From assembly GCA_965287045.1 (NCBI GenBank), contig OZ336874.1, positions 46,810,001-46,874,000 on the forward strand: a DNA stretch of 64,000 nt, read 5' to 3'. The stretch comes from Carcharhinus amblyrhynchos (lineage: Eukaryota). The translations under genes and the position numbers were made by a program. This document shows, in pieces, positions 5,353 to 62,689 of this stretch. The notes under the pieces are model-generated. The model had not been told where the DNA came from. It saw nothing but the letters and a program-made list of their open reading frames with translations, and made no database searches. Positions within the stretch are counted from its first letter, which is position 1. Each line of letters starts with the position of its first letter.

Positions 5353-5640
5353 GCAGTGGCACAGTCATTGGCACTGCTACCTCACATCGCCAGAGACTCG
5401 GGTTCGATTCACAGCTTGGGTCACTGACTGTGGAGTCTATATTCTGCCCGTGTCTGCGCGAGTTTCCTTCAGTACTCTGGTCTCCTCCCACAGTCTGAAA
5501 GATGTACTAGCTAGGTACACTGGCCATGCTAAATTCTCCCTCAGTGTACCTGAGCAGGCGCTAGAGTGTGGCAACTAGGAGATTTTCACAGTAACTTCAT
5601 TACAGCGTTAATGTAAGTTTACTTGTGACACTAATAAGAA
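5353..5640 (+). mobile_element. tRNA-derived V-SINE inserted in the Rex1/Babar LINE
   Basis: Head gcagtggcacagt...gggttcgattc (A/B boxes), V-domain, and the same tail as 2103-2367. Confidence 0.85.
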
Positions 5641-33764: not shown

Positions 33765-33902
33765 ATAAAAGCAAAAATACTTTGGATGCTGAAAATTTGA
33801 AGTAAAAACAGAAAATGCTGGAAAGACTCAGCAGGTCTGGCTGTGTTTGTGCAGAAAGAAATTGAGTTAACATTTTGAGTCTGCATGACTTCTTCAGAGC
33901 TT
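33765..33902 (-). mobile_element. Penelope-like pLTR fragment
   Basis: Reverse complement reads ctgaagaagtcatgcagactcaaaatgttaac...acctgctgagtctttccagcattttctg. Confidence 0.7.
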
Positions 33903-34199: not shown

Positions 34200-35812
34200 A
34201 TATATCTATTGCTTGAGAAATATCTCCAGGATAATAGATCATAAAATCATGAGAAATAGGAACAAGGTTAGGCAATTTTTAAGGAAATTTCAGAGACGTG
34301 TAAGAATTATGGAGTAGTAATAATGGGGAACATTAATTATTCAAATACAGACTGGGATACTAGTAACGTAAAGGTCAGAAAAGTGCAAGTTATAGGAGTG
34401 TGTTCAGGAAATTTTCTTATATCAATATAATTCTAGTCCAACAAAGGAGGCACTGCTAAAAATCTGGCTCTTGGTAATGAGGTAAGTCAAGTGTATCAAG
34501 TGTCAGTTGGAGAAAATTTCGGGGACCATAATTGTATCATCAGGTTGTGGATGGCTATGCAAAAGGACAAAGAGCAATCCAGATTACAAATAATTAAAAA
34601 CAGGAAAAACAAACATCAATGTAGTAAGAATAGATCTCAGCCAGATAAATTGTTGGCAAGAAGAACAGTATCTGAACAATAAGATACATTCAAAGAGATA
34701 GTTCAGGTGCAGACAAGGTATATTCCAATGAAAGGGGCAAGATGATGAAAGAGAGATTAAGAGTAAGAATAAAAAGTGTGCTTATGCCAGATGCCAAGAT
34801 GGTAATAGAACAGACAATCAGGCTGAATATAGAAGATTCAGAGGGAAGTGAAAAAACAAATAAGAGAAGTAAAAAAAGTATGAAAAGACTGAAAGCTAAC
34901 TTTAAGGGAATGCCAAAGTCTTCTATAAGTTTAAAATAGTACGGCTGATTTGGGGCCTAAAAGAGGACTCACAGATGGATGCGGGGGCATAGCTAATGTA
35001 TTAAATCAATACTTTCCATCTATCTTTACCAATGAAGAAGATGCAACTTGAACTATGAAATAGGAGGTAATTAACAAATTTGAAGGGTTTAAAACGGATA
35101 AGGAGATGATACAGAATAGGCTGTTGTACATAAAGTTGATAAAGCTCCAGGACTGAATGAGATGCATTCAAGAATTGAGAGAGAAATGAAAGTAGAAGTT
35201 GCAGAGGCACTGCCATAATTTGCCAGTCTTAGACTTAGACACAGCTGGTGCCAAATGTCACACCATTGTTCAGAAAAGGGTGTAAAGATAAGCCCAGCAG
35301 AGTGGTGGGGAAACTTCTAGGAACAAAAATCTGGGACAAAATTAACAGCCACATGTAAAATTATGGAAAGCCAGCATGGATTTCTTAGGTGAAAATTGTG
35401 TTTAACAACTTGCTGGAGGTAATAGAGAGGATTGATGAGGATAATGCTGTTCATATGATGTACGAGAACTTCCAAAATTCATTTAGTAGCAAAGTTTTGG
35501 TTAAAGAATAAAAGGGACAGTAGAAACATGGATATAAAATTGGCAATGGATAGGAAACAAAGAATAGTGCTTAATGAATTTTTATAGACCAGAGCAAGTT
35601 TTGCAATGAAGATCTCCAGGGTCAAGTTGCATCTTCTTCATTGGTAAAGATAGGTGGAAAGTATTGATTGGAATTTCTGATCTTCCTGGTGTATACTAAT
35701 GTTCTAAAACTAGATGAATAGGGCATAATTTCAAAAATCTGCTGGTGATATGAAGTTTGGAAGCATTGTGAACTTTTAAGATGATAGTGTAGAAATTCAA
35801 AAGGACTTTAGG
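34200..35812 (+). mobile_element. CR1 LINE (APE-RT), decayed
   Basis: VIMG..NY..IDW, LG.DH, DKAPG, SQHGFL, and a QGS-type region. Confidence 0.8.
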
Positions 35813-39762: not shown

Positions 39763-40883
39763 CTGTGATGTATACATTGAAAATCAAAACCATTCAAAAA
39801 TTAAACAGGGCATTTTAAAGTAGGAAAAAAAGTATCACAAATTAAATAAAAGCAAAACCAATTTCTAGCTTAATTATAAAAGATGGAGAAATGTATTGAA
39901 AACAATTTATGTTTTACACTTAAAGATAATTATTGATTTTTGTTCCAGAATGACTTCCTATGGCATAAATATTATGCAGGGGGTGGAAACTTAGCAAATA
40001 TCGAATTATGGGCTACTTTTGGAAGACAGAAAGGAAAGCCACACATGTTGTCTGGTTTGTGCTATCCTAACCCGATTGCGAGTACTTCATTGATTTTTAA
40101 CGCTAAAAATTTTGCTCCACGCAGCTTTACTCGCGGAGAAGGTATTTCAAAACTAAAAGAACTTTTTGAAATAGGCAATTTCTTATTTTATTCAAATTGA
40201 TTGCAGCCTTTCCCTGTCCCTATACATTTTTGGAACCCCATTTTGCATTGCACGCCCTCCCTAGAGATTTTCCATACAGAAAAACTGACCTTTTTTTCCC
40301 TCACAGCAAAAGATCTAATTACTTTTTTCTGCAAGTCCTTAAATGAAACGGTCTGTAGGCTTACAAATACTAAAATTGGGAAAAGCCAATATCGTTCACT
40401 TTGGAGTCTTGAGAACTGCAATTAAAGCTGTTTAGCCGATCAACTTTAACTCTGGCTTGTGAAGCCGCCGAATAGTTTTTTTTAAATAAGGTCAAGATGA
40501 TTCTCGGTTTGGAGGGACAAGTGCTGGAGATATCGTGACCTATCTGCTTTCAGTACAGACGATGAGTGATCTGTGTATTTTCAGTATTTGGAGCTTTCGC
40601 TTTTTTTAAAAACCTTCCCAACTGTAAGTGCAGCTGATCACTGTTACAGACGAATACAGGCTGAAGGGGATTTCTCGAAAGAGATCCGGGAAACCTCCAA
40701 GAACGTATTTAATTCTAACTTACTGTAAAAGTTAGTGGATGACAGCTCAGCGACAATTCTACTTTTACATTAAAATTTGCAGCCACAGCAGGTAATATTC
40801 CAGTCCTTGTGTTTTGAACATTACAAAACATATTCAAACCTATATACATTGCTTTTTTAAAAAAATAGAAATGGTGTGTATAC

Positions 40884-41065
40884 CCTCTCAACATATCATG
40901 TCCTCTTCTCCTCACTTTGGCTGCTGCTGCTTCCCTCATTTCATTTGGATTGTATCTTTGTGCTTCAAAGCTCCTTGGATATTGCTGTCCAGTCACTTTT
41001 TCCACCACGATGCCTGCAATTGCTACACATCCCAGCAGAAATTTCCAACAGCACCGTATCCCCAT
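40884..41065 (-). CDS. FBN2: Fibrillin (FBN2-like; FBN3 not excluded), coding exon 1: signal peptide and N-terminal propeptide
   Basis: ATG at 41065 gives MGIRCCWKFLLGCVAIAGIVVEKVTGQQ...AAAAKVRRRGHDMLRG, which resembles the FBN2 motif RVRRRG..DVLRG. The exon ends at GG|gtatac (phase 2) and joins the next exon to give G-PNVCGSRF. Confidence 0.9.
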
Positions 41066-41860
41066 TCCGGGAACACGCTAGCTCCTTGGCTTGTTAAAGG
41101 ATTTCCAGATCACGTTTCAAGAATAACTTCACAGTCTTGTTGACCCGATTAGTATTCACTTTATAACTCGGGTTCCTCTCAGTTGTTCATAAAAATCTGA
41201 CAAACCTACGGTTTTCTTAAAGTTGGCAAAAAGGAAAAATATCAAAAAAATTTGCTTCGACTGCGACTTAATGCAGTGACACCACCACCCCTCAAAAAAA
41301 TCAATCTAGGGTAGGGAAGGGAGCAAAACGCATGAATGTAAAGACTTTTTTTTAAGGTGTTGCTGTTTAAGAGAACTGAAGCCTGCCTGGGATCTTTGCA
41401 AAAAGCCGCCACTCCAGCGAGCTGAGACTGAGAGGCTACAGAGAGAGCCGGGGCTTTTCACTGGTTGCTGTCAATGGAGAGAGTGTGAGCACGTGGGTTT
41501 AGGGGAGGACTTAATCCAGACGAGAGAGGAGCTTCCCTCTGCTGTCTCACTCACACATTCCAATACTCCACTGGGTGGTGCAAACGAAATGGGAGAGGCG
41601 TCGAATATGGACTTTCTCCATTTCTTGCTTCTTCCACCCCCATTGTTTTGAAATGAGGTAAAGTCGTTTTAAATCATCGGAGAGATTACTTCAGAAGTTG
41701 TTCCTTTTCCTTGTACGCGTTTGCATAAAAGATACTTTATCCCTATATCGCGAACAGGCAGCAATGTATTTCCCGGAAATCTTTCCCACATATCGCAGAC
41801 GCACAGCTGCTCATTTGCTGAGGGTCGCCGACTGCACACCTGTGCTCACTTGAGCAACCG
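41066..41860 (-). promoter_or_regulatory. Fibrillin 5'UTR / proximal promoter region
   Basis: Transposon-free and locally CpG-enriched relative to the window, directly upstream of the ATG. Contains an E-box CACGTG (~41490) and ATTTCCCGGAAAT (41768-41780). The TSS cannot be determined from sequence alone. Confidence 0.55.
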
Positions 41861-42620
41861 TCACCCACCAATCTAACTACCCCATAAACCACTTTCCCAA
41901 CCCCCTGTTCCTATCCCAACTCCGTCTCTTTTCCCACCTACCTAACTACCCCGGTCCTCTCCCACTTCCGTGCCTAAACCCCTTCCGACCCTCTCCCTTC
42001 TTACCCCCTCGTAACACCTTCCCAACCCTCTTCTTTCCCACCTCCATCTACCCATGTGCCTACCTCCCTGCCCCTCCTATCACCTCCCCAGTGCCTGGTC
42101 CTTTCCCACTTCCCCTACACTTTGCCTTACACACTCCCCACCTAACTAATTGCACCCTGAAACCATTTTCCCAACCCTCAGCCCTTTCCAATCTCCATCC
42201 CTACACTCCTTTTTGACCCCTCCACATCTCCCTTCCCAACTCCTGTCCATTTGTCTCCCCCCCCCCCCCCCCCCCCGCTACAGAACTGCTCCCTCCTACC
42301 ACCTTCTATCTATTCCACTTCCCTCCCTGCATATCACCACCTCCCTATCTGCCCCTTTCCAGCAACTATCTCTGCAACCCACTGCCCTCCTGGAGCTGCC
42401 CCCTTCTCCCCAACTCTATCCCTACACTGTCACAACACCCTTCCACCTCCCCTTCTCCATTTCCAATCTTTGACCCACACACCCTCCTCTCATCTTCCTG
42501 CCTCTCACCTCTGCTTCTGTCCCCCATGCTGTCCCATTACTACCCTGCCTCATCATTACCCTCTTAACTTCCCCCCACATAGCACCCTCCTACTTTGCTC
42601 TTCCCTTCCTCTTTGCAATC
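41860..42620. repeat. Pyrimidine (C/T)-rich low-complexity tract including a C20 run
   Basis: About 760 bp with very few G on the + strand and many CCC runs; C20 at 42257-42276. Confidence 0.85.
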
Positions 42621-44845
42621 TGGAAGCAGCAGACCCTGTTCATCGTACAGAAAATCTTTCAAACTCCTAGAATTGTGTCCTATTTCCATGGGTAAAAAAA
42701 AACACTTTACCACAATTCCTCACAATCTTTTACAATATCCTACAGTTCATTTGAGCAACCTGCTGGAAATCCCCTAATATAAAAAATCTATTTTAGAACA
42801 TAGAACACTACAGCACAAACAGGCCCTTCGGCCCACTAGTTGCACCAACTAAAATTAACAATGAGCACTGGTTGTTAGATCTGCATGTGTAATTGTCAAT
42901 ATTATGACTCGTGATGTCACAATTTATTATACACCTTTTGTTAGCATTACAATTTATCAAAATTGTTTACCTTTATATACATGTCTAAATAAGTTGAGTA
43001 AACCTACAAGTTGTGCATACTTCTTAAAACCATAAAATAGCCACAGGAATTTTTTTGTCAAAACATGCAACTTGGCTTTTTATAAACACCACTATTGAAA
43101 ATCCATTGTCAATAAAACTCTCTCTGATACATTCTCTTTGCAACTTCAGTTCTACCTCAAAGTGGTTTCCATTTTACAATGCCTGTAAAGTTTTAGTATA
43201 AACCTGGAGTTGGGATGCAACCAACTGTGAAGAGAAGCAATTTGGGGCTGTGTGGAAGACACAATCTCTCTTCAGTTAGATTTGACACCACAAGCAATAC
43301 AACCAAATTTAAACATTGCCCAGGGCATCCACCGTTACCGCCTAGACACTCTTGAAACCTGTCTGGAGTTAATTTAAATGTTTAAACAGTGCAGATGCTT
43401 TCACCCATGCTCTTTGGGATGTTCTGAGGTCATGAAAAGCAACTTCCTCTTCTCCTTCACATGTTTAAATTTTAACTATTAAGAGAGCAGCTCTGTACAT
43501 GTGTGTAGCCAGGCATGTGCTAAACTCTGGTCAGGATGATGGAATTCCAGTCAGGAAATTTAAATAGGGCAACAATCAGATTCAAACTTGTATTGCTGTG
43601 TTAGATAGGCTAGATAAAACAGAATTGTTAATACAATCAGGACCACTTACGCACTATTTTTAATAGGTATCTTTCCTCTGTATGTTGAGTTAGCCCCGTC
43701 CCATATTTAATAACAGCCTTCTTGCCATCTCTGCTTCCCCTACATAAAATCACAGTGCTGCGTGTTGTCAGAACAGACATCTGTGACTGACTTCGAATTG
43801 TTGGCATTCAACTCTGATTAAAAAGAATCCGAGTAACAAGTAAGAACACAAAATTTCTAAATATAAAAATAATTATTGAAAAATGACAAACTAAATCCAA
43901 CAATTCCTTTTCAGCAAAAAGGCTGTACAGCTGTAGGACCCTAAAAATAACCTCAATTGTAAAACCAAACATTGGACATTATTTAACATTTAAATTTGAA
44001 TTATGAACAAAGATGCTATTCTATAAATAATGACATTTCCCCAAATTATTTCCAAGGCAATGACCTTAGTCCAACTGATTCGACATGGAATGTAGAGTTA
44101 CAAGCATTATAGGATGTTAACTAGTTTTATTCATGAGGTATTCCGGAAAGTAACAATTTATATTCTATGCCAAAAAATTAACAGAGACTGCCTTATGTGC
44201 CACGTATACTAATTCATACTGTCAATACAATACCCATAGTGTTGCTACTAAAATCCTGCCATCATTTAAGATGTTTTTTTTGATATTTGGAATGTTGCCA
44301 TTTTTTTCAAACAAGCGATACCACCAAGCCAAGGTTGACCATATTTCCTCCTCTGCCTCCATTGTTATCTAAATTCAGGATTTTTTTAATGAACCTTCAT
44401 CTTGAATAAATGGTACATCCCTCCAGGATCTGCTAATCTGCCGTATTTACTAAATAAACAGTCCTTTGAATACCCTCGCTTATACTGATTTCCTTTCAAT
44501 GCTACTTTACAATAAAATTCCAAAGTTCATACTTCACATCGTTTTGATACTTTTATATGAAACAAATGTGAATTACCTTAGTTGCTTTAATAATGAATTA
44601 ATTTGGTACTTAGTCCTCAGTTCTTTTCCAGACATGGAAGTCGGACATTCTGCTATACTCTGTGAGTGGCCGGTCTTGGTGATAATCATAAATTCAGAAT
44701 TTTGTAAGTACAGACACTGAATTCTGTCATCTGCTATCTTGCTGAGTTGCTTCAACTAAGAGATATACCTCTAGAAATGCCATGAGATAAATATAAGCAA
44801 TGTTCTGCAGATATTATAAATCTGAAATGAAAATAGAAAATGCTT

Positions 44846-45270
44846 TGATTTGATATATTATTGTCACAAATATTAGCATACAGTGAAAAGTATTGTTTCC
44901 TTCATGCTATACAGACAAAACATGACATTCATAGAGAAGGAAGCAAGAGCACGCAGAATGTAGTGTTACAGTCATAGCTAGCGTATAGAGAAAGATCAAC
45001 TTAACGCAAGGTAGGTCCATTCAAAAATCTGATGGCAGCAGGGAAGAAGTTGTTCTTGAGTTGATTGGCACGTGATCTCACAAGTTTTTACCTTTTTCCT
45101 GATGGAAGAAGGTAGAAGAGAGAATGTCCGGGATGCGTGGGGTCCTTAATTATGCTGGCTGCTTTGCCGAGCAGTGGGAAGTGTAGACAGAATCAATGGA
45201 TGGGAGGCTGATTTGCGTGATGCATTGGCTACATTCATGACATTTTGTAGTTTCTTGTGGTCTTGGGCAG
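44846..45270 (-). mobile_element. Rex1/Babar LINE 3' end, inserted in a Penelope pLTR (44800-44845 and 45271-45355)
   Basis: Reverse complement matches 6750-7160 (AQSITQ..LPSIDSVYTSHC..KAA) and has the tttga-repeat tail. Confidence 0.85.
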
Positions 45271-45394
45271 ATGCTGGAAATATCCAGAAAGTTAGGCAGC
45301 ATTGGCGGAGAGAGATGTAAAGATAACATTTTAGGGTAATGTCCTTTCATTAGAAGTGAATGCCCTGGTCTTTAAAATACAAAATTAGTACTTC

Positions 45395-45667
45395 CGGCAC
45401 AGTGGTTAGCACTGCTGCCTCACAGCTCCAGGAAACTGAAATTAATTCCCGACTTGGGTCACTGTCCATATGGAGTTGCACATTCTCCCCTAGATTGTGT
45501 GAGATGTGTGGGTTTGGTGGATTGGCCATGGTCAGTTGCCTCTTAGTGTCAGGGAGAATAGCTAGGGTAAACACATGGGGTTATGGGGATAGGGCTTGGA
45601 TGGGACTGTGTTTGGTGCAGACTCGATGGGTCACATGACCTCCTTCTGCTCTGTAGGATTCTATGAA
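45395..45667 (+). mobile_element. HE1-type V-SINE with CR1 tail
   Basis: Head ggcacagtggttagcactgctgcctcacag and tail gtgcagactcgatggg...ggattctatga. Confidence 0.85.
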
Positions 45668-46499
45668 TCCATTAGCTTTTATTTTTTAAACATTTAATTC
45701 TGTTGCATATCATATTTAGTTATTGTGGAAAGAGGATTCTGGCTGAAAAAATTTGTAAAAAATTGAAGGATGTCTTTGACTTCACTTCTCAATTTGCTTT
45801 TTATTGGCAAGGCAATGTGTTTTAAATTACTAATGAGTAATTTCAATTCCCACTTGCTAAGTGTGGATTGATGCATCATTATTTATTCAGTTTTAATTTG
45901 TTGCTGTTTCATGATAACTTTAATTGATAAACACAACACCAGGGTGCCGTGGACAAACTGTGTGTTATATGCAAAACTTACAGATAAAGCAAATATCCCA
46001 TGGCATTGCTCATGGACAGCCTTAGGTAATACTTGTTGTTTAAAAGAGGGCTGCTGGAATTCTGAAGGGGGGGGGGGATGCAAATTTCTGGAGGAAATAG
46101 CTGGGATGAAATTTCTAAGAGATCTACAAAGCAGGTTTAATTATTTTTAATTTGTTCCTGAAAAATGAATAATTAGTTTTTTTACCAGTTTAGATGTAGA
46201 AATGTACCATTTTGTTCATTTATATACATTTACAAAGATAAGTAAATAAATCTTGACATAGCCTATACTATTCATGATGTACTCTTTTATAACAAGGCTG
46301 AGAAATGTACAACATTTGGTATAGTCTTTTTTTTATTTCTGCTTTTCATCTGTATCAAACATCTGGAACCACACTTATTGTATTTAAGCAGAAGCTTTTT
46401 GGCACCAGTCAATCTCACATGCAGAATTGGTAACTTCCAGTGTGCCTTTGTCTGCTCAATATCTAGATGAAAGTGAATGGGATTCGAAATTTGAACAGA

Positions 46500-49400
46500 T
46501 GCCTCTTGACACTGCACTCTGGATCATCTGAATGGTAGTTTGTCAAAACAGATTGACCAGAGTTGCAAAACCCATTGAAATACATACATTGATCTGCACT
46601 AATATCATTCAAAGTATTAATATGGATCAATGTGCAAATTTCAATACCCCACACAGGTATAATTTGAAGAATTGAACCATATATACCAAGAAAGTAGCCT
46701 GTGCAACATTTCTTGCCCGGAAGGGTGAATATTATCCATATTGGAAAAGCAGCTAACAAGAATAGATCTTAACAACAGCAATAATTTACATTTGTTATAG
46801 TCAATGTAGCCTACTGTAAACAGCCACTTCAATATGTTAAATGCCAGTTTCAAGAATTTTCTTGGGGTTTTTTCTAATTAACCACTGCAGCTTTAGCAGA
46901 ACAAATTTATCTAAATGTTTATCCATTATGATCAGTACACCTTCTGAGAAAATTCCAGGTGCTAATTTTCCTTTACGGAACAAAATAGTTAGTACTTGCC
47001 GAAAGACAAATTTACCTATTGTACCAAAACATAATTCTGAGCAGTTTTGCATTGCTTCTGCATAATAGAGGAAGTAAGATTGCTCTAAAACAAGTACTAA
47101 TATGATTTATGATTGACCAGTTTTACTGCCAATTTACAAAAAAGTGTCTAAATGGTATACATAAGTGCGTATGGGGAGTTGCAGTCTGCCAGCATATATT
47201 TCTTCAGCTTATGGTAGTCAATCTGGGAACTTGGTTTGGACTTTCCACATAGCATAGTTTTCATGGAAAAGAATGTTACAATTATTTCAGAAACAGCAAA
47301 TATTATTGCCTGGTAAACATTGTCTTTTATTGTCACGTCCTTATTTATACTGGAGAAACAAGATGTTAGAAGCGAAGTTTTTTCAAAAAGTATTTTCAGG
47401 GATTTTAATTTGTTCAACTTGGTATTTCAGTGGTAGACATGACTGGCTGTTCAGGATTGATGCTATAATTTCATCCAAATTGTCATCCTGCTGAATGAGG
47501 TGTCATGATAAATCTGTAAAGTGAGAAAGTTGGGTAAATAAGGAGAATGTAAACTTTTTTATTCACACAAACATGAACATTTTAAGATGGATTTTTTAAC
47601 AATAAATGCACTAAGAGAGAAATTTAACTTTGGGCATTGTCAAAGTAAGACGTCACAGATTGGTTTGCCCAACAGCTGCCAGACTGAAGTTATATATTGT
47701 TTCAAATTTACATCCTTGTCATTAAAGCATTGGTTGCTGCTTTCCAATTGCCTGAAATTTTGCCTTGTTAAGATAAGCTTACCTTGGTTGGATATCTCAA
47801 AGGATTTGAAAGTGTGTACTCTTAGGATGACCCACAAAGGAAAGGCTTTGAACAGTCCTGTGGAGTTGATGTGTTTTTATCTTGCTGAGTCCATGCAAAG
47901 TTCATAGGAAGAACAATCAGCAGATGTAAAAGTGAAGGAACAAAATGGTGAGTACAAGTTGGATATTACTTGAAGCAATCTGGCATTATTTTGAACCCAA
48001 CTATCTGGGACAAGCATATTTTTCTGCTACTGGAAATTATTACATTGATTAAAAAATGTAAAATATGCATTGTAATGAATATCTCTCACTAAATAGGTAA
48101 ATATAGATAGTGTTCTCCTTTAAGCTTAATAAGGACAAAGCCAAATGATTTAGAATATTTATGAACAGTAATTTAAACAAATTTGATGAATGAACAAATT
48201 TCAACATTCCTGAGAATAAAGACTAAAGGGTTGATTTCTCTATGCCTCTCTTTCCGAGCAGTATACAGCAATAGTATACCCCATTCACATTTCATTTGTC
48301 TAGGGATGTGCACATCATATTTCCTGGATCATCAATAGCAGCCTCTGTAGATCCACCCGTTGGCATCAGCAGTAAGACTATGAGAACTGGGGTACTTGTC
48401 GGCCCCGATGTTTGGGCATCCAACGTGTTGCACTAAGAAATGATGCAGAGAGCTGGGAAAACCTACTCCCATCTCATTTGAAAGACCGCATCTAGTCAGT
48501 ACCTTAATATTCACCCCTCATTAGGAAGCCTTGCAACTTAGAACAAAGAACAGTACAGCACAGGAACACGCCCTTCAGCCCGCCAAGTCTGTGCCGACAC
48601 AAGTGCCTCTCTAATCTAATATTTTCTTGCCTCTATGTGGTCCATATCCCTCTATTCCCTGCTTATTCATGTATCTATCCAGATGTCTGTTGAACATTGT
48701 TATCGAATCTGCTTCCAGCACCTCTTCCAGCAGCCCTTTCCAAGCATTTACTACCCTCTGAAAAAGTTGCCCCTTACTGCCCCTTACATCTCTTTTAAAC
48801 ACGCTCCCCTCCTCCCCGCCCCCGCCCCACCACCTTTAATCCTGGGAAAAATACTCTGACTACCCACTCTATTTAAGCCTGTCACAATCTTGTAAACCTC
48901 TATCAGGTTCCCCCTCTCATCCTCCAACGCTTCAATGAAAACAATCCAAGTTTGTTCAATCTTTCTTCATAGCCCATATCCTCCGAACCAGCCAACAAGA
49001 AGGGGGGTAATATTCTAAGACTCAACTAACTACTCTAATATCTGAATTATGTACGAGATTGTCAGTCAGATAGGAAATTCATGTGAAGTTCTTCCTCAAG
49101 TTGTTAATAACCCTCAGGTTTCTCTTTTTTTGGCATCATGGGCTGAATGGTCTCTTTCTGTGACATAACTTTACTCCAGCTCTATAAAGGTTTTGTAAAC
49201 AGCAACAATTAACTGACCTGAAATTTCTTTGTGCGTAGTGTGTTCTTATGCTACTGACTCTGGAAGTACACACCAATGTTAAAAGATGTGATTGAATTCC
49301 ATTTCATAGTCCTTTGAGACTGAAAATGAAATGATCAGTCATAAACCAAAGTAAAGCCTGCAGATATCAAAAAGAAATTGTGTGTGCAATAAAGAATGGC

Positions 49401-49950
49401 AGGATTGACTACAGCCTACTGAGTGTTGACAATGAAAATTCACTTTTCTTCTTGAGGTTTCCTTGGCCCTTTGATTAAGCTGCCTTTTAACAAGGAACTG
49501 GAAGTGCTGAATAAAAATAGCACATGACAGCTTCACTATATTCACTTGTGTGTTGCTAAATATATGTCCTTGTTTCCAAATAATTTGTTTTATTCCAGTG
49601 AGTTTAATATCCAAGTTCAAAAGCAAAATACTGTGGATGCTGGGAATCTGAAATAAAAATAGAAAATACTGAAAATACTAAGCGGGTCGAAGCATTAATA
49701 TCTAAGCTTAGTAGCAAATTTCAGCAGACAACAATTCATTATAGAATACAAATAGCTGATTCTAGGTGGAGACACAGCTGCATTAGGAAAAAAAAACTGA
49801 TGTGTTTAACTGGACTAGTTCCAATTCAAAAATTCTGACAGTTAAGCAGAAGGTCCCACTGTATCATTCTTCTTGTATATTGCCATTTAACTTGGAATCC
49901 AGGTCATCTGACTGAGAGCTTAGCTCAGAACAATTGATTTATTATAGAAC
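46500..49950 (-). pseudogene. Highly decayed Toll-like receptor-like pseudogene (LRR, LRRCT, TM, TIR)
   Basis: Minus-strand fragments occur in the expected order across frameshifts and stops: LRR-like LNLDIKLTGIKQI (~49580-49620), LSLLSLKENTI (~48106-48138), TMPKVKFLS, LFTQLSHFTDLS and LNKLKSLKIL; LRRCT-like LPGNNICCF*NN..F...KVQ (~47240-47317); TM-like ISTCFRAILLPLLC (~47060-47100); TIR-like DKFVLLKL, KLLLLLR...MDNI (~46730) and WGIEI. Interrupted by CR1 and Penelope fragments. Confidence 0.5.
48538..49000 (-). mobile_element. CR1 LINE 3' end
   Basis: FQRVVNAWKGLLEEVLEADSITMFNRHLDRYM, and a tagaacaaagaac tail. Confidence 0.85.
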
Positions 49951-50028
49951 AAACTATCTTTTTACATATTGTAAGAACTGGTTTAACACACAATTGTAAT
50001 CTGTAAGTATCATAGAATCCCTGCAGTT

Positions 50029-50335
50029 CAGAAGGTCATTCAGCCCATCGAGTCTGCACCGACTACAATCCCACCCAGGCCCTATTCCCGTAACCCCACA
50101 TATTTATCTTGCTAATCCCCTGACAACAGGGTCAATTTATCATGGACAATCCACCTACATCTTCCTCCCTACATCTTCGAACTGTGGGAGGAAACCGGAA
50201 CACCTGGAGGAAACCCACACAGGCACAGGGAGAACATGCAAACTCCACACAGACAGTGACCCAAGGCTGGAATCAAACTCGGGTCCCTGGTGCTGTGAGG
50301 CAGTAGTGCTAACCACTGTGCCATGTGCCACCCCA
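50029..50335 (-). mobile_element. HE1-type V-SINE
   Basis: Reverse complement of the tRNA head, V-domain and CR1 tail (catagaatccctgcag). Confidence 0.9.
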
Positions 50336-50829
50336 TAACTATCTACCTCTTCTTAAAACTTTCCCAGCATACACACACACACACACATACACAAACAAAG
50401 GACACACAGATAGCTTCTACAGAGAAGGGGAGTTAGAAAAATCTTTTAAAGAAAGGAGAACATTTGCTGGGTTCTACACATCGATCTGGAAATCTCTCAC
50501 GTGAAGATGGGCCACTCATCTCAGTAAATGTCTGGTGATTCTCACAAATGGAGCTTCGGCATGAAGGAATATATAGAGCTGGATAGATTCCTTTTGTCTC
50601 AGCTTTGCAAGTTTGGAGACAAATTAGACTCAGATGAGGATTGTTTGACTACAGGTTGAGCAAGTAGAAGATAAATAAAGGGTTAACTCAGAAAATATGG
50701 TTTAGCATGATTTGACGGGTTTGAAGAGGATAGCAGGACTTGAATAAAATGAAGGCATACAAAGAATAGGATGCTCTAGGAACAAGCTACAACCTCATTA
50801 GGAATTTAATTATTAGTGTAATTCTATTC

Positions 50830-51125
50830 TGGTAAAGACCTATTGGATAAACAAGGTAGAAAATTCATTGTATTAAAGAATGTGATTAGATCTGTACAGA
50901 ATTGAACATACTTGTCTGATTAGATATGTATAATAGATGGCTGATGTGATTAGATCTGAACAGACTTGAATATACTCATATGATCTATGTAAAGGATGGC
51001 TGTAATAGAACAACTTTAAGCAGATCCTTCTGATCACTCCCAATAGCCATTGTAAGCGCAGAATAAAATAATATTGTGTGGGAGTTGCTGCGATGTAGGT
51101 TGTTTCTTAAAACTTTTCTTTAACA
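50830..51125 (+). mobile_element. Probable solo LTR with internal ~60-bp duplication
   Basis: TG...TTAACA with AATAAA at ~51062. tgtgattagatctg.acaga.ttgaa.atact occurs at 50881 and 50945. Confidence 0.5.
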
Positions 51126-51544
51126 ATGTTGATAAGCACACGTTTTAGGAAGGGCAGGGAAAGAGAGAATCAGTTAGGGTAGCCTTCCTTCATAACTTAT
51201 TATCCACAAATGTTGAATTCAAACTAACAGGTTCAAAACTTGAAGCTTTCTCTGTTACGTGATTTCTAGTAAGTCACTAGCCTTTGCCATTTTTCAGTTC
51301 CTCCACCTCCTCCCCCACCCGCATCAATCAAAGCAATTGTAGTTCAAAACAGACAAAAAATCTTCACCCTTAAGTTCCATATAAGTCAGATGATTTGTTT
51401 AAAAAGGTGTTCTCTCACTCCAAAGAGGAATTTATGACCATTTTGCAAAGAAAAACTCCAAGTGCCGAAATGATGCAATGTCTTTTCAAATTTTAAAAGA
51501 ACAATCCAATTCATGAGGATATGGTTTTCCCCAACAATTTACTA

Positions 51545-52160
51545 ACTCATGGAAAGCAGAGAGTTGGGATTAATGGGTATTTTCAATTTGGCAAACTTTA
51601 ACTAATGAAGTGCCACAGGGATCTTTGCTGGGGCCTCAACTATTTACAATCTATATTAGTAACTTGGATGAAAGGACAGAGTGTATTGTGGCCAAATTCG
51701 CTGACAATACCAAAATAGATGAGGAAGCAAGTGTGAGGAGAATATAAAGAGTCTGCAAAGGACTAGAAATAGTTTAAGGTGAGCAGAAAAATGGCTTTTG
51801 GAGTATAATGTAGGAAAATGAGAGATTATCCAGAAAATTAGAGTGTTGTTTAAATGGCGAGAGACTACAGAATGCTGCAGTAAGACACGTACGAGTCACA
51901 GAAAGTCAGCATGCAGGTAATGTTGATTATTAGGAAGGCAAATGTAATGTTGGCCCTTAATTTCAAAGGAGATGGAGTATAAATGTAGGGACACCTTGTT
52001 CTAACTGCACAGGGGATTAGTGAGACCATGCCAAAAGTACTATGTACAGTTTTGGTCTGCATTAGAGGCAGTTGAAAAAAGGTTCACTAGATTGATTTGT
52101 GGAATGAAGAGATTGTCTTAAAGGAAGGATTTAACAGGTTGTACCTATATTCATCAAAGC
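51545..52160 (+). mobile_element. CR1 LINE RT fragment
   Basis: EVPQGSLLGPQLFTIYISNLD...KFADNTKI. Confidence 0.9.
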
Positions 52161-52270
52161 AGTGTTTGACTGAGTGTGACATCAAGGAGACCTAGAATAA
52201 TGAAAGACAATGTGAATCATGTGGGAAAACTCTCCACATGTTGGAATCATATCCAGTACAAAGGAAAATA

Positions 52271-52372
52271 GTTCTGATGAAGGATCATCCAGACTCAAAA
52301 CGTTAGAACTGGTTTCTCTCCACAGATGCTGTCAGATCTGCTGAGGTTTTCCAGCATTTTCTGTTTTTGTCG
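52271..52372 (+). mobile_element. Penelope-like pLTR fragment with hammerhead-like core
   Basis: ctgatgaaggatcatccagactcaaaacgtt...cacagatgctgtcagatctgctg. The flank caaaggaaaat is duplicated at 52260-52270 and 52373-52383. Confidence 0.75.
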
Positions 52373-52626
52373 CAAAGGAAAATGATGTGATTGTCGGAGA
52401 CCAATCACTTCAGCCCCAGGACATTGTTGTAGGTGTTCTTCAGGGTAGTGTCCCAGGCCCAAGCATCTTCAACATAAGGGGATGTTTGTTCACTGATGAT
52501 TGGACAGTGTTCTGTATCATTCCCAACTCCTCAGACACTGAAGAAACTTGTGGCCACATGCAGCAAAACATAAACAAAATTCAGGCTTGAGCTGATAAAT
52601 GGCAATGACATTTGTGCCAACAGCTC

Positions 52627-53220
52627 TGTGGTAACTAACCCAAATGGTCGTTACTCATTTCTGAGTTAAATAGTGTGGTGAGAAATTTATACTGTTGTCT
52701 ACATGAGGCATGAAGTTGTCATGGTTGCCGTGGGAGCCTGTGCTATTTGAATGCAGCTAGCAAGCTGAGGGCTCTGTTTGGAAATCCACTGCGGTTCACT
52801 TTGTGCAAGAGGCTGGGGAATTGGTTGGTTTTTAAGATCGGCCAACTGCTTAGTCAGATAGAGAATAGGAGAGATGATCCTGTGGTGGCAGACTAAGCCA
52901 ACAATGGACAAAGCACTTTTGTGGAGCCAGAAGAAACATTGCTGTCTCCACAACAATAAAAGAGAAAAAGGTTTGAGCACTTTTTATGGAGCTGCCACCA
53001 ATGTTAATCATATATTAACCGTGTTTAATTATCTGCAGTTGGTGAGCATTAACTGTTGATTCACTTTGATACAATTAGAAACAGATTAAGATTGTGATTA
53101 TTGAGTTGGGAGGTGCGTTCTTGTAATGTGTAGCTTATTAAATAAATATAAAAATGTAAAGGTTGACTCTAGATCTATCCTCCACAATTGGCATTCTGGA
53201 ATTGAGCATGGTAGCAGAGA
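52627..53220 (+). mobile_element. LTR plus tRNA-iMet PBS, same lineage as the intron-2 copia element
   Basis: TG...CA ending at 53208, followed by TGGTAGCAGAG at 53209. Its U5 resembles 31472-31529. Confidence 0.7.
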
Positions 53221-53514
53221 ATCGCTTACTCCAGCTACTTTACATAGAATTACAATTCTATTTAGTGATCTCAAGGTGTTGTCCTTACCAAACCTAAAGA
53301 AACTATGCCTTTATATTCCTTAATCCTTACGATTTAGGTAAAATTTGGACCAATCTTCTCCACAAATTAACAAATGCAAGCTCCTACATTACACAGATAA
53401 TAGTGTATACAACCAAAACATTCCTCTTTCTGAAGTATCATTTTGAGGAACCTTCCTCTCCACTTTGGCTGGTTCATCACGTAGTGATATCTCCAGTCAC
53501 ACCTAGGATCATTG

Positions 53515-54370
53515 AATTATAGAATCGTTACAGCGCAGAAAGAGGCCATTTGGCCATTTATGTTCCTTGCAAGAGCAACTCTGCTAGTCCCAGATCCTCA
53601 CCTTTCCTTCGTTCCTGCTAATTTTTTGCCTGCAGTTAATCATTCAATTTCCTTCTGACTGAATCTGCTTCTACCCCACCCCAAATCCTAACCACATGCT
53701 GCATAAAAATGTCTTTCCTCAAGTTGCCTTTGGTTTTTTTCCTAGTTAATTTACATTGGTGACCATTGGCTGTCAACATTTCCATCAATGGGAATAGTTT
53801 CTCTCTGTCTTCTCTGTCCAGACTCATGATTTTAAACACCTCTACCAAATCTCTGCTCAACCTTCTCTATTCTAAGAGGAGCAACACTAGCTTATTCATT
53901 TTATCCAAATAACTGAAGCCCCTGAAACCTGGAATTGTTATTATAAGGGTACAGTCCTTATATGGTACCATACTCCATAGTATAGTATAGTACCTCCCAC
54001 ACAGTGATCTATGAGTTCACATGACCTATACGTAGGGGTCAGTCTAGTGTTAGGCAGAGCTGTGTGCACAAGCAAGCATGAAGCCAGCTCCGACCTTGAA
54101 CTCTTTACTGTAGATATATACATAGCTCTTATAGTTAATAAATTCATACAGTTAACCTACTTAAGACAATGAAGACTTTATTAAGTTCTATCAACTGATA
54201 GCCAACACCCTACAGAAGAAAATATTTTTGTGAATCTTTTCTGCAACCTCTCCGATGCATTCAAATCCTTCCTGTAGTTTTGTGCCAGAATTGGATACAG
54301 TACGCCAGTTGAGGTTTAATCAGTGTTTTATAGAAGTTCATGATAACTTCCTTGAATTTGTACTTTGTTG
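53515..54370 (-). mobile_element. CR1 3' fragment interrupted by a probable solo LTR (53936-54214)
   Basis: RDLVEVFKIM..DREDREKLFPL and a tagaatc tail. The insert reads TGTT...ACA and contains AATAAA. Confidence 0.8.
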
Positions 54371-56060
54371 GTAGAATTTAATGCTCCTCCCAGGAGTGGA
54401 AGTGGTTTAATCAAGCAGGAAGATGTGGGATAAAGAGTCTATCGACTTCCCGACTCCCCTCAATTAATTCAAAAACAGAGAAGGTCAACATTGGCCTTGG
54501 AGTGGTGGGCTTAAGGAATGTGAGAGGAGGGGAAGGGAGGTGGGTGGAGTAGGGAGGGAAAAAGGGGGGAGTTGGGGAGGGGGCGGGGAGGAGGAGGGAG
54601 TGAAGAAGGAGGGGACAGTTGGGGAGCAGGGCTGGGGTTGGGGAGGTGTGTTTCTATATCATGTGAGGAGGCTGTCAGGTAAACCTCAGCAGCTTCGCTG
54701 GGTGCCTTCTTTCTTGATACTCTGTGGCACCAGCAGGAAACCTGAGATCTGTCTTGACTTCCTCTTGAGGTCCCAGCATCACAGATGTCAATAATCTTCA
54801 GCCAATTTGATTTACTCCATGAGATATCAAGAAACACCTGAAGGCATTGGATACTATACTGCAAAGGCAATAGGTCCTGAAACAACAACCTGGCAATAAA
54901 CTTGTGCCCCACAGCTATTTGCTCCCCTGTTTGCATACAGTTAAACATGGGATGAGGGTAGCAATTTTGCCCCCATTTCACTCATGCAATAAAAAAGGGA
55001 TATAAAAAGGAATTTACAGAGACAAGACAACAGAGAAAATAATTATTGTTTCACTTGTGTCCAAAAGTCCATAAACAAAGTCCATTGGTTATTCCTTCAT
55101 AGAGGTCAGCAGGCTAAACTCATGCTGGTTAGTTCATTTTCCAGCAGAGTTGACTTCCATGATAAGACAGCCACGCAGAGATGAATCAATCTTGTAGGCA
55201 ATGGTACAGAAGTTCCCATGGAACCAGAGTAGTTTGGGGCCAGGCATTCAAATCAGACATTGTCCCTTTTCTGTGCTGCTGTTTGGTAGGTGGAAGGATG
55301 GCAAACTGAACTTTGCAGCTCCACACAAGCTCAGGGGCCATGCCACATGACACTGACCTCTACACTTTTGCTTTGACAACAGATATATCCCTTAATGTTC
55401 CAACCATTAAGAATTTGAAAGGAAAGTTGTAGGACTCTTTGTCCTACCAGCCTAGGAGACTACAGTTTTGTCAGCCTGATTTCTGACATGCAGATGACCT
55501 TTGTAGAGTTCTGTTTGCGTTTGATCTCTGCAGCTATGGGGGTTGTGATGGCCTTCAGAGATAATGAGGTGATACTGTCAGATTAGCTCTTAATATATGA
55601 AGATTACAGACAGGTATAGCTTTAATTTTCTTTTAAATTTTAGAAACTAGCCATGATGATATATATTTCATAAAAATAGTGTGAGTCTTAGCTTCATTAC
55701 AAAATAACATTCATGCCTCACAAAAGCTAGGCAATAAACATCACCACAAGAAAGAATCAAACTGTTGGCCTTTGACATTAAATGGCATTAACATCACTGA
55801 ATCCTTCATTTTCAATATCCTGGGAGTACTAGGAACTGGCCAAGCCTCTTTTAACAACACCTTTCTTTACTAACTAGAAGGTCAAGGGCAGCAAATGTAT
55901 GGAAACACTATCACCTGCAAGTTCCCCTCCAAAATACCCATCATCTTGACTTCAAACTGCATCACCATTACCAATTCCACCATCCCTCCGTACCCTGATA
56001 CTACAAATCTGTGTTAACTCTGTTTCCTCTCAGTTCTGCCGAAGGGTCAAAAAGACTCAT

Positions 56061-56390
56061 GGGGCGGCAAGGTAGCACAGTGGTTAGCACTGCTGCTTCA
56101 CAGCTCCAGGGTCCTGAGTTCAATTCCTGGCTTAGGTCACTGTCTGTGTGGAGTTTGCACATTCTCCTTGTATCTGTGTGGGTTTCCTCTGGGTACTTCA
56201 GTTTTCTCCCACAGTCCAAAGATGTGTGGGTTAGGTTGATTGGCCATGCTAAGAAATTGCCCCTTAGTGTCTAGGGATGCGTAGGTTAGAGGGATTATAT
56301 AAGGATATGGGGGTAGGGCCTGGGTGGGATTATGTTCAGTGCAGACTCAGTGGGCCGAAGGGCCTCTTTCTGCACTGTAGGGTTCTATGA
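56061..56390 (+). mobile_element. HE1-type V-SINE, full length, inserted into a Penelope pLTR
   Basis: Complete head, V-domain and CR1 tail. The pLTR continues on both sides (ctgccgaagggtc... / ...ttgaaatgtt...cacagatgctgtcagacctgctg). Confidence 0.9.
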
Positions 56391-56689
56391 GACTTGAAAT
56401 GTTGGCTCTACTCTATTCACAGATGCTGTCAGACCTGCTGAGATTATCCAGTATTTTTCTGCTTTTGTTTCACCATTCTTTCATTTTCACTGGATCAAAA
56501 TCTTGGATCTTGCTGTTACTAGCACTCTGAGTTGAATCCTGACCAGATGGACTGAGCAGTTCAAGAACTGCATGGCAATTAGAGATTGGTAACAAATGCT
56601 GGCCTTGCAAGCAACTTCCACATCCCATGAGGAATCAGTCAAACTTGGATGACACAAATTTCTGGTCATGTCAAAGTTGTCCATCATTC

Positions 56690-57400
56690 CTGCTGACAGA
56701 AAGGCAAACCTCACAGAACCATGCCTGAGATAAGCCAAAATTCCACACTAGTGATTCAATTTATCCAAACTTGTCTAAGCTTGTCGTATGACTGCAGTGA
56801 TCTCTCGGGTTATCGAGGCCATCAGTAAGGGACAGGAGTACAATCCAACTGTTTTAGAGGCCGTGTTCATAGTAAAGAATGGATGGAAGATGGTGACAGA
56901 AGCCATATTGCCAATTGTTTCCACCATGCTGGGTTCATATAGACTACAACTGCGTAAGATGTCAACAACGAGGAGGGGCAGAGTGAAGCCAACTGACCCG
57001 ATGACAAAAAATGTTTTGCTCACCTGCGAGAGGCTGACACAGAAATTCCAGGAGAGAGGCTGCCAAGGAAACTTGCACAGAGACGGATGATGCCACACAC
57101 TGCATCACAAACCTACGGATCTATGTTCTTCAACTGAGGGGCCAGAGAAGTCCAATACCTTGAAGAGTGCAATGTGCCCCCCTGTGTTTTCCTAGCCGAT
57201 GCTTCAAAAGCTGTTGAGATGTCTAGGATTTTGCACTGCAGCATGACAACACTGAAAACATTTGACAGCATTGGCGACATGGTGGGCTGTAACACACACA
57301 TCCAAAGACAGCATGTTAAGCAGAAAAAAATTACAGAGATTTTCCGAAGCTAACTCACAACAGTTTTCAATGCAAAGCTCCTGCTTTTTAAGAGGTCAGG
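56690..57400 (+). mobile_element. Tigger/pogo transposase remnant (DDE C-terminal part)
   Basis: IEAISKGQEYNPTVLEAVFIVKNGWKMVTEA, then after a frameshift IANCFHHAGF, and terminal KQKKIT. Confidence 0.75.
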
Positions 57401-59089
57401 CCATAGCAAGGTGTGAACAAATTGATTAAAGCCTTTTTCACTCATTTACTACTTTACTGTGTTTTCATTTGGAACTTGAATCTGTTGTTTTTGACATAGA
57501 CTGCCTTTGTAGGTGTATCAGGTTACATGTAGCCTCCTTGGCTATCTCAAAGCTCCACTTAACACAAATTTGTGGCCGCATTCCCGAGATTCGACACATC
57601 AGGATTGTATTGTACCTCACATCAAAAATTGGCTGCCAAGCTGTGCACCCACTTACAGGCCTGCATCTGATAGGTCCTAAGTATTGAAAGAATGGCTGCT
57701 ATTACCTCTTGCTATTCCTCTGCCAGTCACCCATGGGCAGTTGAATATTATTGTCTGCATGTCATCTGCTTATTTGGCCATTAAAAACATGTCAGCTGAG
57801 TCCAATGGCGACACCAATGCACTTTACAAATAGGACTAATGGATAATTGTTGCACCTAAGTTTCTACTTTCGTGAAGAAAGACTAACTCAACAATGACTG
57901 GAACTGAACCTGAGATCCTCTGGTTTGTATGATGTGCTTTCATACTGCATAGTGTACTGAACCACTAAACTATCAGAGAATCATCACAATACTATTTCAC
58001 GGGCTTGTGATGGAAGAATGCCTTGTACAAGAGGGATACATATGTGAATTTATCTCCCTTTCAATGGTCATTCACTTCTACACTCATATAGACTTATAGA
58101 AGCCCTTTAGTATAAGTAGCAATCTGTACACGTGGTATTATACAGTTTGCACAAAATCTACCGTGCTTGATTCCATATGTATAACACAGGAATGCTGCAT
58201 GATAGGTTAGTGAATACCTGCCACAGAAGAACAGCTGGTAGCTAAGAGTGAAACCAGCAATTGGTTTGAACAGACCCCTATTCATTTGTCTATATCAGAT
58301 AACAGAGTTTCCTGTACAAATGGTATATATTGCCTGTGTACACTCATGCTAAACATGTGCCAGTGTTTTTTTTAATGTACTGTGGCCCATTTATAGAACA
58401 TTACTTTCAAACTTAAAAATTCACTTTTACTGATTGAAGATAATATGTAACTTATTCTGTAACAGCACTTTCTGGACTGACTGTATAAGGTTTTTCCAGC
58501 ACAGTGGAATGAGAGAAATCAGTAGATCAAGCTGATGCAGACACATGAATATTGTAGGTCTTCAGGGAGACATGCCACAATAATTTCTTACAGATGTGCT
58601 GTTGGGTCCCTGCAAATTACTAGACTGGAGAGGAAATGCTGGCCACACCCTCTGACGCACTAGGAGCACTGTACAGTACAGCAGCACATTGTGTATATTA
58701 ACATGCAACACATTCTTTTTGCACCAGCAATTTCTGTCTTGGATCAAAATGTATTATTTTAAACGGTAACTATTGCATATTGTCTGAAATATTTACTTCA
58801 ACTAAAACTACTGAGTTCATTTTATTTTCCAGAGCTGTAGATATTATAGTCTCAACAAAACTAACTGTGTTCCTTAAGTCACTTGGAAAAATAGCTTGAT
58901 AAACTTGGAGTTTAGAACTTGATTAAATGTTTCATATTGACTGCGATAACCAAATACACTGTGGTAAGTGATCATTACCAAGTTGCTGGAGTGATGGCAA
59001 TGTTACCTGTAAAAATATCTGAAGTGTACAATGATATTCACAATGCCAGTATATCCCAAATCGTTTACCAGCCATCGAATGACATCTGG

Positions 59090-59670
59090 CATATAGCTTA
59101 AACATGGCAGCCATTTTGCATAAGCCAAGACTCACATACAGCAATAAGATGAAGGGCCAGTTAATCTGTTTTAATGGCATTGGTTTGTGATCTTACTGAC
59201 TTTTTCCGCTGGTTGGTCGGGACACAGGTACACAGCGCACTGGGAGTTTGGGGTGTCTGCACAATGGTGCCCTTGAACTCAGCAGCTGGCTTCCTGGCTT
59301 AAATAGGCTCCACCCACTCACCCTGCTGGTGAGAATCACTCCTGGATTCTTTTTTTATGTGCCATATGATTGCGTATGGGAGCTCGCCCAAACCCGATTC
59401 TCTCCTGCTTTCACGCTTGTTTGGCACTTAGAATTTTTTTGGTATGATGCCCCGGCCGAAGTGTAAGTCCTGTGTTCTTCACAAGAATGCTATAGAATCT
59501 TTTACATTCCAAACAGGTAGAAAGTATCAAAAAGCAACATGTCCAATAATTCAGCATTTTGTTAGTACTGCTCTAAATTGTCAGCAAAGATTGTATGCTC
59601 ATGTGCTGAACTGGGGCTTAACTCACAAAGGTCTAACTTGTAAGAAAGCTAGCCTGTCAATAAGCTAACA
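59090..59670 (-). mobile_element. Deu-domain SINE remnant, interrupted
   Basis: Reverse complement of Deu-like gcaaaatggctgcc and gtaaaagattctatagcatt...gaagaa. Confidence 0.45.
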
Positions 59671-59699
59671 GAAAAAAGTGCCGAGGTCACTGTTGAATG

Positions 59700-60800
59700 T
59701 TGCCTAAATAGGAATGTCCAGGACAGATATGGAGGCTGAAGATCTCTACCAGAATGTGTGGAGATCCATTGTCAGATCTGGCCCGATTGTTAAAGAAAAG
59801 GCTGCTGAAGTTTCAAAACAATAAAAAAGGAAAAATGTTGACTGTAAAGATGAATCCATTGTGTAGATACAGATAACACCTGAAGGTTGGAATCTATAGA
59901 CCTGGCCCAATCACAAGAACAGTGAGCAAAATACAAAAAAAAATTTTAAAAATAGGTAGCAGTTTCAATGCTGAACATATCCATAGGGCAGCTGGAGGAA
60001 AGTTGCAACACGTGCTGGCACCATAACATGAGATGGCTGAGCTGGAGTGAAAAGAAAGAGCAATGTTGAAGAAGAAGGAGGGCAGAGAAGAGTGATCCAA
60101 TCTGAAAAAGATTATGAATGAGATGTGTAATAAAGAAGAGCAAATTCAGACTTTAAAAGCAGAAAACGAAAATTCTCAGAATCAGATTGATGATCTAATG
60201 AGTGAATTGGAAGAATCTAAAGAGGAGTTAATGATCATGGAAAGAAAGACTCTAGAAGGAACTGAGTGTCCAGGCAAAGTTGTTTAGTATGTCTAATTAA
60301 TTTTGCAGATAACTCAAACAATTGAATTCACTGGAGTAGTTGCTCAGCTGAATGAAATGATTCATAAGCTTGAAAAATTATTTGAAATTAAAACTGCAAA
60401 CAATGTTTGCCAAAATTGTGAAATACATAGAAATGAATGTTCTGTTTTCAAAGTGTCATTGCCCAGCAAGAACATGGCGGATCTCATGGAAAAGGAAACT
60501 TCAAGTCCACTCTTGGAATGAGTGGAGTGCGCATTTCCTTCAAAAGCAATTGGACAAACCCATGGTTTCCAAACAAAGCAGGCGTTGTCAATAAAAGGAC
60601 CTTTTAGTGATAGACCAAGTGAGCCTATACAACAGATGCAACTTCAATATATGTGATACTGGTATTGATATTGGCATTAGATGTAGATGTGACCCTTAAT
60701 TTGGGACTCAAGATTTCCACAAATTAACTAAGTTTTATTCTCTAGGCTGCCTCATGAACCATTTCTTTAAAGATCTATTATCAATGGAAAAATGCTTTTT
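59700..60800 (+). mobile_element. Possible decayed LTR-retroelement internal region (coiled-coil gag plus integrase-like)
   Basis: Purine-rich, with frameshifted coiled-coil text (EQIQTLKAENENSQNQIDDL), CQNCEIH and P.EPIQQMQL. Confidence 0.35.
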
Positions 60801-60879
60801 CCTACAAGGTGTGCATGAGCTTTTGTTCTGTCCTACGTTGCGCCTTTTTTTGGGGGAGCATTTGACATGAGCTACTCTC

Positions 60880-61250
60880 TCCAATTTACATTCTAACTTG
60901 GGAATTATGAAGTGTTTGATAGAGTGGACACAGAAAAAGTGTTCCCTGTTGTGGAGAGCAGGCCATCAATATAATAGTCACCAAGAAGTCCAATTGGGAA
61001 TTCAGAAGGAACTTCTTTAACCAGGGAGTAGTAAGAGTGTGGAACTTACTACTATGGGTAGTGATTGTAATGAATAGTGTTGATGCATTTAAGGGGAAAA
61101 TAGACAAGTATTTAAGGGAGGAGGAAATAAATAGTAACAATGGCAGATTTAGATGAGCAAAGATGGGAGGATTTCCAAATAGAACAGAAACATTGGCATT
61201 GACTGGCTACGCCGAATGGCCTATTTCTGTGTTGTACATCCCATATAATT
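60880..61250 (+). mobile_element. CR1 3' end
   Basis: FRRNFFNQGVVRVWNLL...AFKGKIDKYL, and tail gccgaatggcctatttctgtg. Confidence 0.85.
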
Positions 61251-61779
61251 CCACTACCTCCCACTCCAGTCTCCAATGCCTTGTGTCCACTAAAGCCCTG
61301 AACCCATTGATCTGCAGTTCCTTTCTATCTCCCGCTCACCTTTGCCAAGCTTATTCCTTCTATAAAACCCACATCATATCCCTTCAGTTCTCTTCCCTTT
61401 CACTTCTTAGCCACTCAGCATAATCACCTTTCCTGATTGCTATACTAACTCACTGTTGTTAACGATTTATTTTTCTCGAATGTAGCTTCTCCACTCTTAA
61501 ACCATGTAATTACCCAGCTTCTCAAAACAATTGTCCTCCAACTTTTTATCACTATTTTTTCTTCTCTAAAATTTTGGAATGTGTTGCCACCTCCAATTTT
61601 ATGCCTGCCTGTTCCACGAGTGACCATTTGAACATCCTCAGTCCAACTTTGATCCTCAACATAGCAGCAAAATGCTATTTTGGCCAAATTCATGAATAAC
61701 ATTCTCTGGGAGCAATTTTACCATTTTTATTCTCAGTGCTGGAAGGATTTGAAAGTGGAAGGTTTCAGATCTGGCTTTT

Positions 61780-62680: not shown

Positions 62681-62689
62681 AATGTGATG

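What the first reader, a model, noticed from the sequence alone, without database searches (positions are those of the whole stretch)
46500..49950. Hidden, heavily decayed Toll-like-receptor-like gene upstream of fibrillin
Seen: this stretch has no long ORF, yet minus-strand translations across frameshifts give motifs in the colinear order of a TLR. They are several LRR fragments (LNLDIKLTGIKQI, WNSITSF, LSLLSLKENTI, TMPKVKFLS, LFTQLSHFTDLS, LNKLKSLKIL), an LRRCT-like LPGNNICCF*NN...KVQ, a TM-like ISTCFRAILLPLLC, and TIR-like pieces (DKFVLLKL; KLLLLLR...MDNI; WGIEI). After removing the TE insertions the span is close to that of a single-exon TLR. Known: TLR13/21/22-type receptors have a GNPFxCxCxN...VQ LRRCT and a TIR containing I(V/I)DNI. 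Inference: this is a fossil of a lost chondrichthyan TLR, and an intact orthologue may sit beside fibrillin in other sharks or rays. Gene annotation would miss it.
Basis: partly seen in the sequence, partly recalled or inferred. Interest (0 to 1): 0.7.

Follow-up and report, generated by a model that had tools for sequence, protein, structure and literature searches.

The report
Possible ancient Toll-like receptor remnant
Just upstream of a fibrillin gene in what looks like a shark or ray genome lies a stretch that may be the worn-out remains of a lost immune receptor gene, but it is so decayed that no test run here could tell it from chance.

Summary
All 13 quoted motifs are on the minus strand in the stated order, with no long ORF, 5.4 kb upstream of a confirmed fibrillin. 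But no search saw a TLR: Pfam, six PDB searches, 1.84 billion representatives, two word-seeded searches. My own frameshift-tolerant LRR, TIR-motif and coding-ghost scans did not single the locus out. Compared by eye with published sequences, the pieces fit the TLR1 subfamily, best elephant-shark TLR25, on one drifting diagonal whose single 494-nt jump equals a ~500-nt LINE insertion; they fit TLR13/21/22 poorly. Yet random queries give block matches as good. Simulation excludes a young or moderately decayed pseudogene. Verdict: an even bet between a very old TLR25-like fossil (TLR25 is reported lost in sharks and rays) and pattern-finding in AT-rich DNA. The decisive frameshift-aware alignment to real TLR proteins could not be run. 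Non-functional either way; interest modest.

The parts
46480..46920 (-). candidate TIR-like remnant (three frames)
   Evidence: by-eye fit to TLR1-subfamily TIR blocks; not detected
47020..47340 (-). candidate LRRCT, transmembrane and juxtamembrane remnant, mostly one frame with 5 stops
   Evidence: 20 of 85 identities to TLR25 by hand, reached by 410-932 of 5000 random queries
47340..48510 (-). candidate C-terminal ectodomain (LRR) remnant
   Evidence: by-eye blocks on one diagonal; 83 of 200 random queries match the count; generic LRR scan negative
48512..49015 (-). LINE (CR1/L2-like, by eye) 3' fragment inserted in the candidate, flanked by an 8-bp direct repeat 503 nt apart
   Evidence: its 3' end recurs at 42793-42834 and 56342-56389; family label recalled
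49015..49480 (-). candidate N-terminal ectodomain remnant, first-LRR-like block at 49307-49280
   Evidence: hand score 28 vs TLR25, P about 0.007 uncorrected
   Evidence: copies at 23688-23821, 33767-33839, 44819-44844
40884..41065 (-). fibrillin coding exon 1 (signal peptide and propeptide), in a CpG-rich stretch; neighbour, not part of the candidate
   Evidence: exons at about 39762-39680, 21946-21848, 21474-21379, 19432-19337; exon 2 and 5 hit fibrillin-1 at E 2.6e-14 and 3.6e-14

Best explanation
A very old unitary pseudogene of a single-exon TLR1-subfamily receptor, most like TLR25, lying in tandem about 5.4 kb upstream of a fibrillin gene. Inferred history: the gene lost function long ago, then gathered substitutions (probably 30% or more), many frameshifts, a ~500-nt LINE insertion in the ectodomain and smaller indels in the TIR part. 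It makes no protein and does nothing now. Shown: the motifs, the lack of an ORF, the insertion, the fibrillin. Inferred, not shown: descent from a TLR, the subfamily, the age, the host group.
For: Motifs in TLR order. About 20 hand-picked blocks against elephant-shark TLR25 lie on one diagonal that drifts 160 nt over 520 residues, with one 494-nt jump where a ~503-nt insertion sits (coordinates in notebook). Five blocks scored by hand favour TLR25 over TLR2.1 (28/16, 23/17, 23/14, and two with no TLR2 counterpart). C-terminal Phe-Cys...Pro...Lys-Arg..Phe spacing in one stop-free frame equals that in lamprey TLR14/18-like sequences. Two rare loose patterns co-occur here. 46400-48500 has no convincing repeat match elsewhere in the window. 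TLR25 is reported present in chimaera and absent from surveyed sharks and rays, so a remnant is expected somewhere.
Against: 0 of 6 frames and 0 of 81 short pieces hit an LRR or TIR family; 0 TLR chains in 6 PDB searches; 0 hits among 1.84 billion proteins for one frame; 0 of 6072 and 0 of 23 candidates; no Atlas hit. LRR scan: not in top 8 per strand. Six-motif chain: not in top 5. Coding ghost: best rank 26 of 422. Hand chain 45.8 (lower bound) vs random optimum mean 131; block count matched by 83 of 200 and 199 of 200 random queries; anchored identities P 0.08-0.19. The same stretch also admitted a TLR21/22-like and a TLR2-like reading by eye, in other registers. Box 1 to box 2 is about 13 codons too long.
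Confidence: 0.48

Rival explanations
1. Ordinary AT-rich intergenic DNA with old repeats. Three frames of 34% GC DNA are rich in Leu, Ile, Asn, Ser, Lys and Phe, as LRR receptors are, so colinear look-alike words are easy to pick.
For: All searches negative; untuned scans negative; random queries equal the by-eye matches; several incompatible registers could be read by eye; first motif abuts a repeat.
Against: Diagonal jump equals insertion length; first-LRR block P about 0.007 before correction; two rare patterns co-occur; searches lose power at 30% decay (1 of 8 detected with a distant orthologue); scans 35 and 56 had no positive control.
Confidence: 0.43
2. A TLR11-subfamily pseudogene (TLR13, 21, 22 or 30).
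For: TLR13, TLR30 and TLR22 pseudogenes are common in sharks and rays; the gross span before removing repeats is 3.4 kb.
Against: Those pseudogenes were found by BLAST and would probably be seen. Span after removing the insertion and upstream repeat is about 2.5 kb. TIR pieces fit TLR1-subfamily sequences seen. No TLR11-subfamily sequence was read, so that side of the comparison rests on recall.
Confidence: 0.04
3. Remnant of another coding sequence, such as an old transposon or non-TLR retrocopy.
For: Stop counts differ between frames in several 300-nt windows; coding-ghost score is mildly above average (rank 26 of 422).
Against: No Pfam family for any frame; no copy elsewhere in the window. 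No transposon library was available.
Confidence: 0.05

Closest known systems
TLR25 (TLR1 subfamily; elephant shark, gar, teleosts)
   Same: By eye: order and spacing of first LRR, late LRRs, LRRCT, TM and TIR blocks; total length about 810-830 codons.
   Different: No ORF; many frameshifts and stops; ~500-nt insertion; similarity not above chance; synteny with fibrillin not found in the papers searched.
TLR2, TLR27, TLR14/18, TLR15 (other TLR1-subfamily members)
   Same: Shared TIR layout; the Phe-Cys before the last TIR strand-helix occurs in TLR2, TLR27 and lamprey TLR14/18-like rows but not in elephant-shark TLR25.
   Different: TLR2 and TLR27 are intact elsewhere in sharks; TLR15 sits among ASB3, CHAC2, ERLEC1, GPR75, PSME4, not fibrillin.
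Known TLR remnants: shark TLR13/TLR30/TLR22 pseudogenes, elephant-shark TLR4 fragment, tuatara TLR15 remnant
   Same: Decay in place of a single-exon TLR.
   Different: Those are BLAST-detectable; this one, if real, is far more eroded.

Membership tests
Toll-like receptor (pseudogene) | LRR ectodomain | tested here: not met
   No LRR family; generic frameshift LRR scan negative (35, no positive control). Only by-eye fragments.
Toll-like receptor (pseudogene) | Cysteine-capped LRRCT before the membrane | tested here: inconclusive
   Pattern unique in the window (88, post hoc); anchored identity P 0.08-0.19 (78); searches negative.
Toll-like receptor (pseudogene) | Single transmembrane helix | tested here: inconclusive
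   Only short hydrophobic runs at 47106-47062 in two frames.
Toll-like receptor (pseudogene) | TIR domain with boxes 1-3 in order | tested here: inconclusive
   Six-motif chain not above 12 surrogates; no Pfam or PDB hit; by-eye fit with spacing errors.
Toll-like receptor (pseudogene) | Significant colinear frameshift-aware alignment to a TLR protein | not testable with these tools
   No TLR protein could be obtained as a stored sequence.
TLR25 | Groups with TLR25 in a TIR or full-length tree | not testable with these tools
   Only hand scores vs two sequences.
TLR25 | Conserved synteny | not testable with these tools
   No vertebrate genomes on hand; synteny figures are not held as text.
TLR13/21/22 (TLR11 subfamily) | Length about 950-990 aa | tested here: not met
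   About 2.5 kb remains after removing the insertion and upstream repeat (78, 80) vs lengths; deletions could hide a longer ancestor.

The most novel reading that the evidence does not exclude
This is the in-place fossil of TLR25, reported absent from all surveyed sharks and rays, fixing its ancestral address next to fibrillin and showing loss by slow decay, perhaps since early elasmobranch history; it would be among the most eroded gene remnants still readable.
Probability: 0.35. Interest if true: 0.45.

Novelty: new member of a known kind. Interest (0 to 1): 0.25.

Why it matters
If real, it turns a reported absence (TLR25 in sharks and rays) into a located, datable loss and gives a site to inspect in other genomes, where some lineage may keep the gene. 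It adds no new mechanism: TLR pseudogenes are common in this group. If not real, it is a clean example of how AT-rich DNA mimics LRR proteins.

Tried and rejected
Single-frame searches: Pfam whole frames and 81 minus-strand 70-aa pieces (11 of 81 had unrelated weak hits, best E 0.005; the 81 plus-strand controls prepared were not run); PDB (two unrelated hits, E 1.4 and 0.23); representatives (25, one of three frames only); word-seeded searches; Atlas on one natural ORF part. Seeking a TLR-type bait in bacterial genomes gave 1 chance match. Three-frame mixed profile: alignments were not diagonal, dropped. Tandem duplication to explain the long box 1-box 2 spacing: rejected, 271 of 1000 shuffles score as high. 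Fibrillin paralogue by exon 1 search: 0 of 33 candidates, length cap below fibrillin size. Structured RNA: none at 40000-56500. Upstream neighbour: no gene family in 50001-64000, one RT remnant. By-eye TLR21/22-like and TLR2-like registers were considered and set aside for the TLR25-like one; their existence counts against the method.

Full report
Observation. All 13 quoted strings are in the sequence, on the minus strand, in the stated order between 49620 and 46651, with 8 frame changes. No stop-free stretch exceeds 121 codons; GC is 34-38%. The fibrillin is real: five coding exons with canonical splice sites on the minus strand, start codon at 41065, exons 2 and 5 matching fibrillin-1 at E about 3e-14 (in one search WIF1 ranks first by summed repeats). 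The exon-2 motif is of the FBN2/FBN3 type (recalled); the paralogue and the host group were not determined by any search. A LINE-like piece occupies about 49015-48512, between 8-bp direct repeats, and 49613-49767 is a dispersed repeat on whose edge the first motif sits.

Searches. No tool saw a TLR: 0 of 6 whole frames and 0 of 81 short pieces in Pfam, 0 TLR chains in six PDB searches, 0 hits at E 0.001 among 1.84 billion proteins for the one frame sent, 0 of 6072 and 0 of 23 word-seeded candidates, no Atlas hit. In simulation the best of three frames was detected in 8 of 8 runs up to 15% substitution, 5-8 of 8 at 20-25%, and 5 or 1 of 8 at 30% depending on orthologue distance. A young or moderately decayed pseudogene is thus unlikely; a very old one is not excluded.

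Own scans. A frameshift-tolerant generic LRR scan did not place the locus in the top 8 per strand. A chain of six short TLR motifs (two from PMC8882821; four recalled) did not place it in the top 5; 12 surrogates per setting reached 14-21 bits. Neither scan had a positive control. A composition-based coding test ranked LINE remnants first and the locus 26th of 422 at best. Loose patterns fitted to the finding are rare for two motifs and at chance for two.

By-eye comparison. I read published TLR rows and scored blocks by hand. About 20 blocks against elephant-shark TLR25 fall on one diagonal from residue 266 (48192) to 778 (46522), drifting 160 nt, and the first-LRR block (residue 61, 49301) is offset by 494 nt, about the length of the insertion. 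The fit is better than to TLR2.1 in the blocks compared, and the TIR pieces read as TLR1-subfamily. But controls undercut it: my chain scores 45.8, a lower bound, against a random-query optimum of mean 131 (30 queries); six blocks of 21 or more in a 75-nt band are matched by 83 of 200 random queries, seven in a 165-nt band by 199 of 200; 20 of 85 anchored identities are reached by 410-932 of 5000. Only the first-LRR block (P about 0.007, uncorrected) and the insertion-length agreement stand somewhat apart. I could also read TLR21/22-like and TLR2-like registers in the same DNA.

How it most likely works. It does nothing now. The slightly favoured history (0.48) is a single-exon TLR1-subfamily gene, TLR25-like, that died long ago and decayed in place; chance resemblance is nearly as likely (0.43). 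The intact receptor would signal through MyD88, ligand unknown (PMC13457159, passages).

Literature. bioRxiv 10.64898/2026.03.23.713620 (parts 1-4 of 5 and section 17 read): TLR25 in chimaera but absent from surveyed elasmobranchs; TLR13/30/22 pseudogenes frequent; no mention of fibrillin in the main text; its synteny supplement is closed and may bear on this locus. PMC8455134 (passages, 12 of 24 supplements searched), PMC9808068 (abstract, results, part 1 of supplement), PMC4850435 (passages, supplement search), PMC10426278, PMC8882821 (passages), PMC6946030 (passages, supplement parts 240, 253, 255, 256). Eight searches listed no paper that places a TLR beside a fibrillin or reports a TLR25 remnant in a shark; figures are not searchable and subscription papers are missing.

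Verdict. Motifs present, significance not shown; if real, a new remnant of a known family, more likely TLR1-subfamily than TLR13/21/22. Interest 0.25; 0.45 if the TLR25 reading holds.

Noticed in passing
window 4267-4468: Near-perfect 200-bp palindrome (96% self reverse-complement match) at the start of a LINE-like stretch.
   Followed up: no
window 35004-35051 and 35622-35669: 48-bp inverted pair, 98% identical, 570 bp apart, in fibrillin intron 2; could be the ends of a non-autonomous DNA transposon.
   Followed up: no
window 2106-2364, 5356-5648, 45396-45666, 50005-50336, 56059-56395: Five copies of one SINE-like repeat, 66-79% identical to each other.
   Followed up: no
window 5700-7200 (+), 44844-45271, 59700-61500 (+), about 51600-51720 (+): LINE remnants: RT-like frames, a coiled-coil ORF1-like stretch near 60000-60900, one weak Pfam RVT_1 hit.
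   Followed up: partly
window about 56650-57100 (+): Decayed frame resembling a pogo/Tigger transposase by eye (label recalled); no Pfam hit.
   Followed up: no
window 40001-42000: CpG-rich stretch (observed/expected 0.60-0.65) over fibrillin exon 1 and promoter.
   Followed up: partly
window 50880-51002: Tandem pair of about 64 bp, 78% identical.
   Followed up: no
window 48500-48300 (-): A GC-richer patch inside the candidate; if it is a separate old insertion, the diagonal agreement argued here weakens.
   Followed up: no
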